DNA of 64,000 bases from positions 3,685 to 67,684 of IMG/VR virus record IMGVR_UViG_2531839420_000002, one strand, 5' to 3'. This DNA comes from a virus. The number at the start of each line of letters is the position of its first letter. The stretch's first letter is position 1. A model generated the notes under the pieces. It saw nothing but the letters and a program-made list of their open reading frames with translations. It did not search any database and was not told where the DNA came from. The translations under genes were made by a program, and so were the position numbers. Below are positions 4,922 through 18,263 of this stretch, piece after piece.

Positions 4922-5233
4922 ATGTCCAGAAAAGGAATGATCGCCAGCGTTTATCGCGACGCCGATGGAGTTGATTGCACCAATGGCGGGATCAGCTCGA
5001 AAGCTGACCGGGTGCTGATCGTGGGCGAGGGCGTGCCCGAAATCTTCGCCGAGCGCAGTGGAATGCCGACGCTTTTGCTTGTGGATCGAGGCCCCAATCT
5101 GCCGCCGGCCCTTTATCCCGCCGATGATCTGCGGCCGGGTCGCTTCATGTTCGGCGGCAATTTCGCCTACAGCAGCGACAGCCGGTGGCCGACGGGCAAG
5201 CCGATCAAGATCCACGATCGAGCCGAGGACTAA
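4922..5233 (+). CDS. Hypothetical phage protein
   Basis: RBS GAGGAGG; DCTNGGISS..FMFGGNF pattern typical of phage hypotheticals. Confidence 0.65.
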   Translation: MSRKGMIASVYRDADGVDCTNGGISSKADRVLIVGEGVPEIFAERSGMPTLLLVDRGPNLPPALYPADDLRPGRFMFGGNFAYSSDSRWPTGKPIKIHDRAED

Positions 5234-5236
5234 GTC

Positions 5237-5419
5237 ATGACCAACCGCTTCTGCGTCCACTACCGCACCGGCGGCATCGCCAACTTCCGCTGGAACACCA
5301 CCTTCGAGTCGCTCGACACCACCGCGGCCCATGACATGGCCGCGCAGATCAGGCGCATGGGCTATCCCACCAAGATCGTCCCGGTCGGGGCGCCGCTTCC
5401 CACCAGCTACGAGGGCTGA
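5237..5419 (+). CDS. Small hypothetical protein
   Basis: Tightly packed in the operon; RBS GAGG. Confidence 0.55.
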   Translation: MTNRFCVHYRTGGIANFRWNTTFESLDTTAAHDMAAQIRRMGYPTKIVPVGAPLPTSYEG

Positions 5420-5422
5420 GCC

Positions 5423-5725
5423 ATGACCAAATACGCCTGGATCATTGACGCCGCCGAGGACGAACCCAGTATCATTGGCCCCAGCGACGCGCCGGAAGAC
5501 CTTCAGGATCGTCTGGTCGATGGCAAGGGGCTTCACTTCCGCCTTTATGACGATGACGACGAGCTTTGCCTGAAGGGCCGTTTGATAAGCGTCAATGCCG
5601 ACACGATGGCTGGTAACTACAGCGAGGAAGCGTTTGGGCCGCTTGATGACTTCGGGGCGCCGGCATATGGCTGCACTCGCATCGACTATCTGCATCCCAA
5701 GACCGAGCAATGGGAAACGCTTTAG
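5423..5725 (+). CDS. Hypothetical protein
   Basis: FRLYDDDDEL..G..YGCTRIDY pattern; packed in operon and followed by a terminator. Confidence 0.65.
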   Translation: MTKYAWIIDAAEDEPSIIGPSDAPEDLQDRLVDGKGLHFRLYDDDDELCLKGRLISVNADTMAGNYSEEAFGPLDDFGAPAYGCTRIDYLHPKTEQWETL

Positions 5726-15128: not shown

Positions 15129-15561
15129 AACGCGATTTCCGGGGCACTGAGCGCCCTTTTTGCCCCGTGGGGTATGTCTCCCGCCCCACGGGGCTTTCCC
15201 CGTTCTACGGGCTTTAAATCGCGATTTCGCGAATACGGTCCAACAGGGTCAGGTTACTCGACCCGTCCCGGCCTGACCACGGCGGCACCTGGTTCCCAGG
15301 CCGGCGGTGCCGTGGCGTTGGGGTCTGGGTCTTCCAGGCCAAGGCGGTCACGTTGCCCGCGGCCAGGCCACCCGTTGACCGGACTCCGGCCGTCCACAGA
15401 ACCTCGGCCGTCCACAGACTCCAGGCCGCCATCAATCCACCACCCAACCACCCGGAAATCCGCCTCCCGCCCGCCGCGCGAGCAGCCTTCGGTTCTGGGC
15501 GAAGATGATCTTGTCCCGAGGGAATAGCCCCTCGGGAGAACGCAACAAGGGATGGACACCC

Positions 15562-15768
15562 ATGGGCAAGACTTTTCGCCGTGACGCTGAACTCGCCGAC
15601 GCCTGGGCTTTGGAGGCCGAGCGCAAGATGAAGGTCAAGAAGCGCCAGAAGCGTCACGCTCGACGCTTCTTGAGCAAATGCATGGCTCTTAGTGCTGTCG
15701 ATGGCTTGTTTGTCCCCGATCTCAGCAGCTCCGATCTGATCGACCCGCCGGTGTTCGACGCCATCTGA
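15562..15768 (+). CDS. Small basic hypothetical protein
   Basis: MGKTFRR..K/R-rich; followed by hairpin at about 15776-15800. Confidence 0.45.
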   Translation: MGKTFRRDAELADAWALEAERKMKVKKRQKRHARRFLSKCMALSAVDGLFVPDLSSSDLIDPPVFDAI

Positions 15769-16377
15769 TCAAGCCAGGGGAGGGGCGTTCGCCTCTCCCC
15801 GCTTCGTCAATTCGCGAATTAGCCATGGTCGTCTGGAGGTGTCGCCTCGGTGCCGCCTGTTGGATACGGCGGGGCTCGTCGCCAGGTGAGCCGTGGCGGC
15901 GCCATAAGGATACGGCACGGACTCAGACAGGCGATCCTATGGCGCCGCCATAAGGATACGGCTCACGCCTGACCTGGGATGTCCTGGCGGCGCCGCCGCC
16001 GAGCCAGACTTCCCCGTTCGATCCCCGTCTCGGGTTGAACGCGGGGGCTTTTTCGTCCCCTCCCCGCGTTCGGGGCTTCTGTCCCCTCCCGTCACTTCCC
16101 GAGGTGGGTATCCCCGGGATGCTCGCCTCTTTGGGCTATGTCGCTTTCTTCATCGCTGTCTCATTTCGCGTCCCTCGAAACCGTTGCTCATGGGTCTTTT
16201 ATAACCCCGTCTTTTGAGGGACGCAATACCCTTTTTTATGTCCCTTCGTTTTTTTGCGCCCTCGCTTTCAAAGAGCGCGAGCGCAACCCCCTTTATAAGA
16301 GGGGGAGGAGGGACAAACCCAAATTTTCCCTTGTTTTCAAGGACGACCAAAAAAATCAGTCAGCATTGATTTTTCTG

Positions 16378-16416
16378 TTGCGTAGGACATTCGGGACGCT
16401 ATTATGAGGGACACAA
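16378..16416 (+). promoter_or_regulatory. Sigma70-like promoter followed by GAGGGACACAA leader
   Basis: TTGCGT-N16-TATTAT, immediately followed by GAGGGACACAA. Confidence 0.55.
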
Positions 16417-16457
16417 GCGACGCACAAAGCGACGCAACAAACGAAGGGATAGACATC

Positions 16458-17129
16458 ATGGAAAATTTCGCTAACGCCCTCGCGCTCGTCACCCCGGAAC
16501 AGATCGAAGCGAAGCGCGCCCATGTTGAAAGCGTTATCAACGCCCGCATTGAGCGGGAAGTCGCGAAGGGAACGACCCTTCCCGCGAAGCTCGCGAAGCA
16601 TCGGGATCGCTTCGTTGCCCCCGGAGTCCTTCGCGTTCTGTGCGCGATGGGCGTTGATCTTTCCCTTGTGTTCAATGAGGCGAAAGTGGACGGCCAACAG
16701 TTTTGCGAGAAAGCCCTTAACCGTGCGTGCCTCGCGCTCTCCCGTGCCGTCAACTATGCCATCCCCTTGAGCGAAGCGGAAATTGACGACAGCGGGAAGC
16801 ACGGGAAAAAGGGAAGCGTAGAACTGAAGTATATTCATATCTTCATGCACAATGCTTCTATTCTTGCTTCTCTCGGGGAATACTTCACAAGCGATCTTCA
16901 GTGCTTCACTGTTAGCAACAAATACACCCCCAAGGGAAAGCGCGTTTCGGGTCTTCTCCGTCACTCTCTCGCTGTCGAAACCGCGTCCCGTCAATCGGGG
17001 CTTACCCGCCGCGCTTTGATCGCGCTCGGGGTTGCGAAGGGGAAAGCGGAAGCGACGGGGCGGGATGCGACGATTGTTATCAATCTGGAACACCCCCTGT
17101 CTCAGTTCTTCCTGAACATCGAGAAATAA
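16458..17129 (+). CDS. Hypothetical protein in compositionally distinct island; C-terminus resembles that of the 2163 protein
   Basis: GGGATAGAC leader, own promoter and terminator; atypical codon use. Confidence 0.75.
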   Translation: MENFANALALVTPEQIEAKRAHVESVINARIEREVAKGTTLPAKLAKHRDRFVAPGVLRVLCAMGVDLSLVFNEAKVDGQQFCEKALNRACLALSRAVNYAIPLSEAEIDDSGKHGKKGSVELKYIHIFMHNASILASLGEYFTSDLQCFTVSNKYTPKGKRVSGLLRHSLAVETASRQSGLTRRALIALGVAKGKAEATGRDATIVINLEHPLSQFFLNIEK

Positions 17130-17137
17130 GGGGCGCT

Positions 17138-17160
17138 GGGGCGGGGGAAAACCCCGCCCC
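17138..17160 (+). terminator. Hairpin after the 16458 gene
   Basis: GGGGCGGGG-gaaaa-CCCCGCCCC. Confidence 0.5.
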
Positions 17161-17256
17161 GCTACTACCCCACCCCGGAAGGGGAACCCGCCCCACAGGG
17201 GCTTAAAACGGGCTTTCACGGGGTGTCGCTTTTCTTCACTGTCCCTCACATTCCGC

Positions 17257-17299
17257 TTGCAATGTCACTCGTTGCAGGGGTATTTAAAGAGGGACACAA
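17257..17299 (+). promoter_or_regulatory. Second sigma70-like promoter with the same GAGGGACACAA leader
   Basis: TTGCAA-N18-TATTTA, then AAGAGGGACACAA. Confidence 0.5.
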
Positions 17300-17319
17300 C
17301 AAACCCAAAGGGGTAGACA

Positions 17320-17379
17320 AATGAAACACGTTCTCGGGTTTTGCTGGGCCTTCGCTCGCAGCTATTCGGGTGGATATAG
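17320..17379 (+). CDS. Putative 19-aa hydrophobic peptide MKHVLGFLLGLRSQLFGWI
   Basis: Same AAGGG(A)TAGAC leader as the 16458 gene; translated by hand. Confidence 0.35.
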   Translation, partial: NETRSRVLLGLRSQLFGWI

Positions 17380-17667
17380 GGTGCGCAAGTCACCCGTTGC
17401 GCTTCGGATCAAAAAAGGGACTTGACACACGCGGGACGTGTGGGGCGATCACTCGCCCCACAACCTAGGGGTATATTAGAAGTCTTAGAGATTTTCGCGG
17501 CCCGGCATGGCCATGCCGCCTGTGTGCCGACCCCGCCACCGACCAACCTTATAGAACCGACCCGCCGGCGCGCAGACGATCCTTATACAGGCGCGCAGAC
17601 CCCTTGACCTCCCAGACCCCAACTCGCATTCTCCCAGCTTGACGAACGATAGAACCGGAGGCTGACG

Positions 17668-17958
17668 ATGAACGAGGCTGGAGTCTCCCCAAAGCACTTG
17701 GCGGTGCTCTACCGCATCGACCGACGAATGGTGAAGCTGTGGCAAATGCCCCAGCTACTCGTCGCGCTATCGCGCGACGAGCTGCCGCGGGCGGCCGCCG
17801 ATCTCGCGAGCAGGGAGCTGCACAACCAGCGTGAGGCCAACGCCATGGTGGCCACGATCTCGATGCTGCCGACCGAGCTGCGCCGCAGCCAGAGCCTTAT
17901 AGAGGCTCTGGGCCGGGCGTTCGAGCTGTCCTATGGCGTCGGCGGAACGGTTCACTGA
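17668..17958 (+). CDS. Hypothetical protein
   Basis: RBS GGAGG before the ATG. Confidence 0.55.
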   Translation: MNEAGVSPKHLAVLYRIDRRMVKLWQMPQLLVALSRDELPRAAADLASRELHNQREANAMVATISMLPTELRRSQSLIEALGRAFELSYGVGGTVH

Positions 17959-18263
17959 AGCTCGAACCGGGTCAGCTTGATCTTGCCGTTCGGGCCTTCG
18001 CACATCGCGTCATAGGTAGCCTTCTGATCGACAATCTTCCCCATTAGAATTATCGAGACCGAGGTCAGCCCTTCTGTTTCAACCGAGCTGGCCCAGAGCG
18101 TTTCGGTTGCCTTGAACGCCTTCGGTGCCCGATCGAGCGCCAGCAGCAGACACTTCGTTTGCAACATCTTCGCCTCGTCAGGCGGGATGTTGCGCGACTT
18201 TAGTTCGGCCAGAGCCGGGGTGCTCAACACCAGCAGAGCGGCTATCAGCAGCGATCCTCTCAC
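17952..18263 (-). CDS. Small exported protein (moron)
   Basis: Signal peptide MRGSLLIAALLVLSTPALA; RBS AAGGAGG; Cys pair. Confidence 0.7.
   Translation of the reverse strand: MRGSLLIAALLVLSTPALAELKSRNIPPDEAKMLQTKCLLLALDRAPKAFKATETLWASSVETEGLTSVSIILMGKIVDQKATYDAMCEGPNGKIKLTRFELQ

What the first reader, a model, noticed from the sequence alone, without database searches (positions are those of the whole stretch)
16035..17340. 1.3-kb island that avoids tetramers abundant everywhere else
Seen by eye: GGCC once (16692), CGGC once, and no TGGC or CCAG, whereas G/C runs (GGG, CCC) and the GGGAC/GTCCC pentamer (about 10 copies) are frequent. The island holds one gene with its own near-consensus promoter and terminator. 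Inference: this DNA is under sequence-specific purge. It may be the first DNA to enter the cell (restriction-site avoidance, as in phage leading regions), or it may have to stay free of the phage's own base modification so host RNA polymerase can read it.
Basis: partly seen in the sequence, partly recalled or inferred. Interest (0 to 1): 0.62.

Follow-up and report, generated by a model that had tools for sequence, protein, structure and literature searches.

The report
Phage control cassette avoiding lone GG/CC
A 1.5-kb regulatory gene cassette in a 110-kb phage-plasmid is written so that the DNA step GG/CC almost never stands alone (it is hidden inside GGG/CCC runs), a local version of the fully GG/CC-free cassette kept by related phages, which implies that some unidentified factor reads this short word.

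Summary
The counts are right and far beyond chance, but the rule is simpler than the tetramers listed. From 16006 to 17498, G or C runs of exactly two are 0.23x expected (32 vs 139), while runs of 3-5 are 1.7-5x enriched. Dinucleotide-preserving shuffles give 121.5 +/- 9 lone GG/CC (z -10). This is the lowest 1.5-kb window in the 3.8-Mb genome (z -6.9). It holds in both non-coding flanks and in the gene, on both strands. Permuting the gene's own synonymous codons gives 39 +/- 4 against 19 seen, and 18 of 20 Gly/Pro codons sit in runs of 3 or more. So it is a DNA-level constraint, not codon dialect.

The gene encodes a winged-helix DNA-binding protein. Thirteen GGGAC sites lie in and around the island, 11 of them in non-coding DNA.

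Related Rhizobium phage-plasmids (RHEph10, RHph_N1_15, B1VFA, X66) carry a paralogue in an operon with no GG/CC at all (1,150 bp in N1_15). In that paralogue family, 63 of 76 proteins lack Gly, Pro and Trp.

The scan has reported GG/CC-free cassettes in other phages. This window shows a new dialect whose banned word is about HGGY.

A purge is supported. Its cause is untested: the phage's own DNA mark, a defence at entry, or something else.

The parts
16006..17498 (.). Compositional island. Lone GG/CC steps are 0.23x expected and G/C runs of 3 or more are 1.7-5x. GC is 55% against 59.5% around it. Both edges are sharp.
16458..17129 (+). Gene for a 223-aa protein (P0002; an in-frame ATG at 16404 would give 241 aa). 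It has an N-terminal helical domain and a C-terminal winged helix-turn-helix. It contains no Trp. 18 of its 20 Gly/Pro codons lie in G/C runs of 3 or more.
16006..16457 (.). Upstream non-coding control region. It is strongly self-complementary (RNA-fold z -5.4 on +, -3.8 on -), carries 8 GGGAC/GTCCC sites and has A/T tracts. It holds 7 lone GG/CC against 36 in shuffles.
16037..16071 (+). GC hairpin with an 11-bp stem at the left edge of the island.
16168..16224 (.). Inverted repeat GCGTCCCTCGAAA / TTTTGAGGGACGC: 13-nt arms, 31 nt apart, followed by a T6 run.
   Evidence: (I18)
16376..16460 (+). Promoter-like element and leader of the gene. It reads TTGCGT-N16-TATTAT, then GAGGGACACAA, then AAGGGATAGACA and the ATG. 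The Shine-Dalgarno-like element is written as AGGGA.
17138..17160 (+). Hairpin GGGGCGGGG-gaaaa-CCCCGCCCC eight bases after the stop codon, with no T run. Further C4/G4 tracts follow up to 17200.
17241..17324 (+). Second copy of the promoter/leader unit. An inverted GTCCCTC / GAGGGAC pair brackets TTGCAA-N18-TATTTA, followed by GAGGGACACAACAAAC, AAAGGGGTAGACA and an ATG.
   Evidence: (D2, D3, D11)
17322..17426 (+). 34-codon ORF behind the second leader. Whether it is a real gene is not shown.
   Evidence: read from sequence
17417..17437 (+). Two further GGGAC sites, one fused to a TTGACA hexamer, near the right edge of the island.
15848..15962 (+). Three 46-bp-spaced GGATACGGC repeats just upstream of the island's left edge (context only, outside the island). 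The repeat stretch is rich in lone GG/CC (15 and 19 per 100 bp in 15801-16000).
   Evidence: (D1)

Best explanation
The island is a self-contained control cassette of a 110-kb phage-plasmid of the RHEph10/pLM21S1 lineage. It holds one gene for a winged-helix DNA-binding protein. Around the gene are duplicated promoter/leader units and hairpins studded with GGGAC sites, which are probably that protein's own operators (inferred).

Its DNA has been selected to avoid GG/CC steps that stand alone. This holds for coding and non-coding DNA on both strands. The banned word is best described as HGGY/RCCD. Gly and Pro codons, ribosome-binding sites and hairpin stems that need GG/CC are written inside runs of three or more.

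This is this phage's version of a cassette that its Rhizobium relatives keep totally free of GG/CC, to the point of encoding proteins without Gly, Pro or Trp.

Most likely purpose (inferred, not shown): the cassette must escape a DNA-level factor that reads this short word, so that RNA polymerase and regulators can use it as plain DNA at entry or in the plasmid state. My first candidate for that factor is the phage's own DNA-marking system, the ParB-ParB-ABC module next to terminase. My second is a nuclease or host defence.
For: Shown:
- Lone GG/CC number 32, against 138.7 expected by length and 121.5 +/- 9 in dinucleotide-preserving shuffles. Runs of 3 or more are enriched.
- The effect holds in each of the three segments and is symmetric: 16 GG and 16 CC on the + strand.
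- The window is the genome-wide minimum.
- The same protein written with the phage's codon usage would give 54.7 +/- 5.1 lone GG/CC. Its own codons permuted among synonymous sites give 39.0 +/- 3.9. Only 19 are seen, matched by 0 of 3000 permutations.
- 18 of 20 Gly/Pro codons lie in runs of 3 or more, including aaG-GGA, atG-GGC, tcG-GGT and acC-CCG.
- HGGY occurs 15 times against 107 expected, HGGA 17 against 31.
- The gene has a winged-helix fold.
- Eleven of the 13 GGGAC/GTCCC sites lie in about 0.8 kb of non-coding DNA, where the genome density of 1.6 per kb predicts about 1.3.

Lineage link:
- The gene is homologous to a gene of the Rhizobium phages in the same neighbourhood (hhalign 97.9%, E 5e-13; synteny).
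- A paralogue of that gene (profile-profile 94.8%, E 5.5e-8) lies in stretches with 0-5 GG/CC where about 100-150 are expected.
- In RHph_N1_15 the 1,150-bp gap is unique; the next largest unrelated gap in the genome is 79 bp.
- 63 of 76 family clusters have no Gly, Pro or Trp.
- The ParB_N x2 plus ABC ATPase module is present here and in the relatives.
Against: - The island is not GG/CC-free. 32 lone steps remain and G-runs are enriched, so its kinship with the relatives' purge is an inference.
- By sequence the window's gene is closer to the relatives' normally composed copy 1 than to their purged copy 2.
- No factor that reads GG/CC is identified.
- No modification, expression or terminus data exist for this phage.
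- Binding of the protein to GGGAC sites is not shown.
- An origin in a donor with the same odd signature cannot be excluded, because the DNA of the closest homologues (P0003, P0004, P0006, P0008) could not be fetched.
Confidence: 0.55

Rival explanations
1. The cassette was recently imported, or swapped in as a mosaic module, from a phage with a different genome signature. On this reading the odd k-mers are a passive donor signature with no selection in this phage.
For: - Both borders are sharp.
- GC is lower and the whole codon table is shifted: GAA, AAA, GTT, TCT, GGG and CCC are favoured.
- The protein has only four distant homologues among 1.8 billion representatives, all from metagenomes.
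- The genes flanking it have no homologues in the Rhizobium phages.
- The relatives' nearest copy has normal composition.
Against: - The order of codons, not only their choice, avoids lone GG/CC (0 of 3000 permutations).
- Both non-coding flanks obey the same rule.
- No other DNA in the genome shares the signature.
- A paralogous cassette in relatives is purged of the same step and has stayed so across proteins that share only about 28% identity between the two phage groups.
- A whole donor genome with 4-fold loss of lone GG/CC would itself need the same explanation.
Confidence: 0.17
2. This is restriction or defence avoidance in the first DNA to enter the cell, like a T5-type pre-early leader. 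The cassette lies at or near a virion DNA end and is kept free of words cut or sensed by host defences until counter-measures are made.
For: - B1VFA, a relative, has fixed ends with a 3.6-kb direct terminal repeat (PMC12509600).
- Earlier scan notes place GG/CC-free cassettes near DNA ends in other phages (not checked here).
- The cassette carries its own promoter-like units.
Against: - The depleted words are not palindromic restriction sites. GCGC and CGCG are not depleted, and CCCGGG is present.
- The rest of the genome carries about 6.5 GGCC per kb.
- No C5 methyltransferase was found in the host assembly, and only one N6/N4 methyltransferase.
- The terminus position is unknown. The island lies about 12 kb from terminase and 17 kb from the contig's end overlap.
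Confidence: 0.12
3. The pattern is a by-product of function. G/C runs are needed as GGGAC operators, GC hairpins or G-quadruplex/structure elements, and the gene simply uses GGG/CCC codons. On this reading nothing is 'avoided'.
For: - There are 13 GGGAC/GTCCC sites, inverted repeats and strong hairpins.
- Four-tract C4/G4 clusters lie at 17130-17200.
Against: - Enrichment of runs does not remove lone GG/CC. By length, 139 are expected and 32 are seen.
- The loss is as strong inside the gene, away from the repeats: 19 seen vs 54.7 expected.
- GGA, GGC and GGT codons are placed after G-ending codons.
Confidence: 0.08
4. The constraint acts on RNA. The transcript must lack GG-containing words to escape a sequence-specific endoribonuclease (as T4 RegB cuts GGAG) or ribosome stalling at Shine-Dalgarno-like sites.
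For: - The ribosome-binding sites are written AGGGA/AGGGG rather than GGAG.
- In the relatives the leader is GA-rich without GG.
Against: - GG and CC are lost equally on the coding strand.
- The rule extends into regions upstream of the likely promoters and beyond the hairpin after the stop codon.
Confidence: 0.06

Closest known systems
GG/CC-free operon of RHEph10 / RHph_N1_15 / B1VFA / RHph_X66 / pLM21S1-type phage-plasmids (seen here in the records; not found described in the papers searched)
   Same: It encodes the same winged-helix protein family and lies in the same neighbourhood (long non-coding region, then the family gene(s), then ParG/ParA, UvsW helicase, ParB, terminase). In both, a whole expression unit including non-coding DNA is purged of GG/CC-bearing words on both strands.
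   Different: There the purge is total: 0 GG/CC in 1,150 bp, GC about 49%, and proteins without Gly, Pro or Trp. The gene there is on the minority strand. Here only lone GG/CC (mainly HGGY) is avoided, G/C runs are enriched, Gly and Pro are kept, and the gene is on the majority strand and closer in sequence to the relatives' unpurged copy.
First-step-transfer (pre-early) DNA in the terminal repeat of phage T5, and site-poor early regions of T7-type phages
   Same: Both are short blocks with their own promoters whose word content differs from the rest of the phage genome, thought to have to work before the phage is protected.
   Different: A terminal position is not shown here. The avoided word is a dinucleotide step in a flank context, not restriction palindromes. 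The product is a DNA-binding regulator rather than known host-takeover proteins.
DpdA-dependent 7-deazaguanine modification with short motifs (phage CAjan: GA and GGC; from my own knowledge and scan note e1-5940186)
   Same: A phage enzyme that marks a very short G-containing word would give a reason to keep one cassette free of that word. GGC is among the most depleted trinucleotides here.
   Different: No TGT/DpdA or QueC homologue lies on this replicon. GGGC and GGGT are not avoided, so the word is not simply GGC.
Predicted ParB / ABC-ATPase / GNAT DNA-base acylation module of phages (a 2013 computational prediction by Iyer and colleagues, as cited in scan note e1-5352779)
   Same: Two ParB_N proteins and a soluble ABC ATPase sit just before terminase in this phage and in all the relatives that keep a purged cassette.
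   Different: Activity, chemistry and target word of the module are all unknown. The link to the island is co-occurrence within one lineage only.
Mosaic immunity/regulatory modules of temperate phages (for example the lambdoid imm regions)
   Same: Both are a compact regulator gene with its own operator-like repeats, sharp borders, lower GC and fast-diverging sequence.
   Different: Such modules are not known to obey a run-length rule for GG/CC or to arrange codon context around it.

Membership tests
GG/CC-free cassette of RHEph10/pLM21S1-type phage-plasmids | No GG or CC dinucleotide over 0.8 kb or more | tested here: not met
   The largest GG/CC-free gap is 65 bp in the window and 150 bp in the whole genome.
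GG/CC-free cassette of RHEph10/pLM21S1-type phage-plasmids | Encoded proteins lack Gly, Pro and Trp | tested here: not met
   P0002 has 14 Gly, 6 Pro and 0 Trp.
GG/CC-free cassette of RHEph10/pLM21S1-type phage-plasmids | Encodes a member of the same winged-helix protein family | tested here: met
   hhalign against the relatives' copy 1 gives 97.9%, E 5e-13. The family profile against the purged copy-2 profile gives 94.8%, E 5.5e-8.
GG/CC-free cassette of RHEph10/pLM21S1-type phage-plasmids | Same genomic neighbourhood, a few kb from ParG/ParA, UvsW helicase, ParB and terminase | tested here: met
GG/CC-free cassette of RHEph10/pLM21S1-type phage-plasmids | GG/CC-bearing words depleted beyond composition in coding and non-coding DNA on both strands | tested here: met
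   Met in a modified form. Lone GG/CC is 0.23x expected, z -10 against dinucleotide shuffles, and symmetric on both strands.
Restriction-site avoidance | Selective loss of short palindromic sites, matched to host restriction-modification systems | tested here: not met
   The depleted words are of the non-palindromic HGGH class. GCGC and CGCG are not depleted. No C5 methyltransferase was found in the host assembly. Other restriction-modification types were not surveyed.
T5-type first-step-transfer / terminal pre-early region | Lies in the terminal repeat or at the first-entering end of virion DNA | not testable with these tools
   No sequencing run was listed. The contig is a 110,357-bp circle with a 2,407-bp end overlap of unknown meaning.
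T5-type first-step-transfer / terminal pre-early region | Strong host-type early promoters | tested here: inconclusive
   No sigma-70 match of 9/12 or better was found in 15500-18000. Two paralogous promoter-like units match 7-8 of 12.
Horizontally acquired island with a passive donor signature | Atypical GC and codon usage with sharp borders | tested here: met
Horizontally acquired island with a passive donor signature | Word bias explained by codon usage alone (codon order neutral) | tested here: not met
   Permuting the gene's own synonymous codons gives 39.0 +/- 3.9 lone GG/CC against 19 seen, matched by 0 of 3000 permutations.
Winged-helix (PadR/MarR/ArsR-like) DNA-binding regulators | Winged helix-turn-helix fold | tested here: inconclusive
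   The AlphaFold2 model has pLDDT 79. All top rows are winged-helix proteins, but at Z 7-8.3 (rmsd 2.3-3, 83-88 residues aligned), which the tool calls a middling level.
Winged-helix (PadR/MarR/ArsR-like) DNA-binding regulators | Match to a curated family model | tested here: not met
   No Pfam or PHROG family matched the protein or its homologues.
DpdA / 7-deazaguanine self-modifying phages | DpdA (TGT-like) and preQ0 synthesis genes on the phage | tested here: not met
   The only TGT hit is on contig C23. The QueC hits are on C1, C53 and C14. None is on C60.

The most novel reading that the evidence does not exclude
Phages of this lineage carry an activity that marks or cuts DNA at a GG/CC-based word, perhaps the ParB-ParB-ABC(-GNAT) module beside terminase. 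They keep their control cassette as the one stretch that stays plain DNA. The two 'dialects' then report the enzyme's specificity in each phage: total GG/CC ban with Gly/Pro/Trp-free proteins in the Rhizobium phages, and an HGGY ban with GG hidden in G-runs here. That would give a direct sequence read-out of an uncharacterised DNA modification.
Probability: 0.25. Interest if true: 0.9.

Novelty: new variant of a known kind. Interest (0 to 1): 0.7.

Why it matters
Avoidance of short words is a known trace of conflicts between phages and DNA-reading enzymes. But a rule at the level of one base-pair step is not something I found described. Here the rule reshapes codon choice, codon order, ribosome-binding sites and, in relatives, the amino-acid alphabet of a protein family.

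This window adds a discriminating case. Because GG/CC is tolerated inside runs, the unknown reader in this phage cannot be a simple GG or CC (PAM-like) recogniser. It must also sense the flanks, as about HGGY.

The cultivated relatives (RHEph10, B1VFA, the RHph phages) make the question directly testable by modification-aware sequencing and by recoding the cassette.

Tried and rejected
- Chance, GC content, amino-acid content and codon usage as explanations were rejected by shuffles and codon nulls.
- Tetramer-specific purge was rejected. Tetramer counts follow from the island's own trinucleotides, and the run-length rule explains them.
- Insertion of a mobile element: only an 11-bp direct repeat (15741/17558) flanks the region, which is compatible with chance, and no mobility gene is present.
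- Replication-initiator reading: no Rep family matched. RepC is a separate gene in the relatives. The PF03428 search of this genome was blank, but its controls were blank too, so it is uninformative.
- Known RNA families and tRNAs: only sub-threshold Rfam hits and no tRNA.
- Close relatives of the phage or the island were sought and none was found. This covered the phage and plasmid collections at the DNA level, 61 related genomes, 83 genomes of the host's family searched with the family profile, viral contigs, and metagenome and genome contigs.
- Sequencing runs: none was listed and no RNA holder was listed. Termini and expression therefore remain untested.
- Literature searches found no description of such a rule.
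- The position of B1VFA's terminal repeat could not be derived from the record.
Full report
**Where the window lies.** The window is G000:C60:3685-67684. Contig C60 is 112,764 bp at 59.7% GC, in a 3.8-Mb genome at 61.5% GC. Its two ends overlap by 2,407 bp, so the unit is a 110,357-bp circle or a terminally redundant molecule. It carries terminase and portal genes, ParA and a UvsW-type helicase, and two ParB_N proteins plus a soluble ABC ATPase before terminase. Its order of shared genes matches the roughly 115-122-kb Rhizobium phages RHEph10, RHph_N1_15, B1VFA and RHph_X66. This group has been described as plasmid-like prophages or phage-plasmids (PMC4447125; PMC12509600).

**Checking the observation.** The island is also an outlier by unbiased measures. 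In a GC-normalised tetranucleotide scan of all 37,344 windows of the genome it is the third most deviant locus.

The tetramer losses are not tetramer-specific. A second-order Markov expectation from the island's own trinucleotides reproduces them. The deviation sits in trinucleotides: GCC/GGC 0.35x, CCA/TGG 0.35x, CAG/CTG 0.42x and CCC/GGG 2.7x.

Looking at run lengths gives one simple rule:
- Single G/C are normal (0.94x).
- Runs of exactly two number 32 against 138.7 expected (0.23x).
- Runs of 3, 4 and 5 are 1.7x, 4x and 5x.

By flank, HGGY occurs 15 times against 107 expected and HGGA 17 times against 31. GGGT and GGGA are enriched and GGGC is not depleted.

Binned counts place the borders at about 16006 and 17498.

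**Is it more than composition and codons?**
- Dinucleotide-preserving shuffles hold the number of GG/CC fixed. They give 121.5 +/- 9.0 lone GG/CC (minimum 92) against 32 seen (z -10).
- The upstream non-coding part, the gene and the downstream non-coding part each give z -5 to -6. Two control stretches give z +1 and +2.
- Writing the same protein with the phage's codon usage gives 54.7 +/- 5.1 lone GG/CC.
- Permuting the gene's own codons among synonymous sites still gives 39.0 +/- 3.9 against 19 seen, matched by none of 3000 permutations.
- Eighteen of the 20 Gly/Pro codons lie in runs of three or more. GGA, GGC, GGT and CCG codons are preceded by a G- or C-ending codon.
- Lone GG and lone CC are lost equally on the + strand: 16 each against 74 and 65 expected.
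- The window is the genome-wide minimum for lone GG/CC: 37 per 1.5 kb against 159.6 +/- 17.8.

The depletion survives, so that test is passed.

**Anatomy.**
- *The gene.* It runs 16458-17129 and encodes 223 aa (an alternative start at 16404 gives 241 aa). It has no Pfam or PHROG match. Among 1.8 billion representative proteins it has only four distant homologues of its own length, one on a 102-kb contig.
- *The fold.* An AlphaFold2 model (pLDDT 79) shows a helical N-terminal half and a C-terminal winged helix-turn-helix. All top structural rows are winged-helix DNA-binding proteins at Z 7-8.3. That fits the fold but is weak for assigning a family.
- *The flanks.* Thirteen GGGAC/GTCCC sites lie between 16055 and 17433, and 11 of them are in about 0.8 kb of non-coding DNA. 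The genome density is 1.6 per kb.
- *Repeated elements.* The flanks hold inverted repeats such as GCGTCCCTCGAAA/TTTTGAGGGACGC. They also hold two paralogous promoter/leader units that end in AAGGG(A/G)TAGACA plus ATG.
- *Folding.* The upstream region folds far better than shuffles on both strands (z -5.4 and -3.8).
- *Promoter and terminator.* The 'near-consensus promoter and terminator' are not borne out. The scan found no promoter of 9/12 or better, and the hairpin after the stop codon has no T run.

That the protein binds the GGGAC sites is my inference.

**Relatives.** The window's protein is homologous to a 233-307-aa protein of the Rhizobium phages (hhalign 97.9%, E 5e-13; tblastn). I call this 'copy 1'. 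It lies after a long non-coding region with clustered -35-like repeats and has normal composition.

About 1.5 kb further on, on the minority strand, each of these phages has a second gene of 189-204 aa, 'copy 2'. Its profile matches the family profile at 94.8%, E 5.5e-8 over 153 columns.

That gene, its leader, its small downstream ORFs and its promoter region contain no GG or CC at all:
- RHph_N1_15: none in 1,150 bp.
- B1VFA: none in 851 bp.
- RHph_X66: one in 768 bp.
- RHEph10: about four in 1.2 kb.
- About 100-150 are expected in each.

In the whole RHph_N1_15 genome the next largest unrelated gap is 79 bp. The copy-2 family has 76 clusters, many on contigs of roughly 104-124 kb. Sixty-three of the 76 contain no Gly, Pro or Trp. 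In RHph_N1_15 the few minority-strand units are this operon, the par genes, the helicase and RepC. This suggests a plasmid-state or control function (inference).

This genome has only one family member and no GG/CC-free stretch.

**Interpretation.** The purge in the relatives has been kept across proteins that share only about 28% identity between the two phage groups. That can only be selection on the DNA step itself. The window's island shares the gene family, the neighbourhood, the coverage of a whole expression unit and the loss of GG/CC-bearing words. But it solves the problem differently, by hiding GG/CC in runs. I therefore read it as the same kind of constraint with a different banned word, about HGGY/RCCD.

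What reads the word is unknown.
- *The phage's own DNA mark.* This is attractive because the whole lineage shares a ParB/ABC module beside terminase. But nothing ties that module to GG/CC.
- *DpdA-type guanine modification.* No TGT or QueC gene lies on the replicon.
- *Classical restriction avoidance.* This fits poorly. The words are not palindromes, the rest of the genome is full of them, and no C5 methyltransferase is in the assembly.
- *A first-entering position.* This could not be tested. B1VFA has a 3.6-kb terminal repeat, but its position is not given.
- *Passive import from an odd donor.* The sharp borders and the general codon shift allow it. The codon-context result and the relatives speak against it as the whole story.

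**Earlier scan notes.** After I had derived the relatives' purge myself, look-ups showed that the scan has reported GG/CC-free cassettes before. These include Rhizobium phage-plasmids and several unrelated phage groups. One note states that the banned word differs between lineages, and others place such cassettes at DNA ends. I checked only the Rhizobium case. The terminal-position claims are untested here.

**Limits.** The function of the protein and of the GGGAC sites is inferred from fold and placement only.

Noticed in passing
L003 9517-10667 (RHph_N1_15); L012 9700-10551 (B1VFA); L013 6694-7462 (RHph_X66); L002 4719-5941 (RHEph10): A complete operon (promoter region, GA-rich leader without GG, a 189-204-aa winged-helix paralogue and small downstream ORFs) contains no or almost no GG/CC. 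Its protein family (76 clusters) is essentially free of Gly, Pro and Trp.
   Followed up: yes
L002 4991-5671 (+) versus 5081-5695 (-): RHEph10 gp097 appears to be annotated on the wrong strand. The minus-strand 204-aa ORF is the homologue of the copy-2 genes of the other phages (86% identity to the RHph_N1_15 protein in the alignment).
   Followed up: partly
L003 6416-6561; L002 942-1087; L012 6407-6604; L013 2543-2740: Each long non-coding region upstream of the relatives' copy-1 gene starts with a cluster of 4-6 copies of a -35-like word. The word is (A)TGTTGACA in the RHEph10 group and ACCTTTACA in the B1VFA group. It differs with the protein group. These may be early-promoter arrays or binding sites.
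   Followed up: partly
window 17904-18035: This 132-bp stretch just right of the island has an 86% identical copy on another contig (C15:95572-95703). C15 has the same GC (59.6%) as the phage-plasmid.
   Followed up: no
C60 1-2407 = 110358-112764 (upstream of the window): The contig ends repeat each other over 2,407 bp. This is either a circle read past its start or a terminal redundancy. Relatives have 3.6-3.9-kb direct terminal repeats.
   Followed up: partly
window 15848-15997: Three 46-bp-spaced GGATACGGC repeats, rich in GCCGCC, end within 10 bp of the island's left border. The switch from 19 to 1 lone GG/CC per 100 bp happens there.
   Followed up: partly
window 16006-17498: CAG/CTG (0.42x, mainly CTGC/GCAG and CAGC/GCTG) and GATC (5 vs 13.8 expected) are also low. 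The GG/CC rule does not explain this. CAG/CTG is not depleted in the relatives' cassettes.
   Followed up: partly
whole genome G000: No Pfam DNA_methylase (C5) hit was found anywhere, and there is a single N6_N4_Mtase hit (C34:81750-82409, probably CcrM).
   Followed up: no
window 17130-17200: Dense G4/C4 tracts follow the stop-codon hairpin. CCCCGCCCCGCTACTACCCCACCCC is a four-tract quadruplex-type motif on the minus strand.
   Followed up: no
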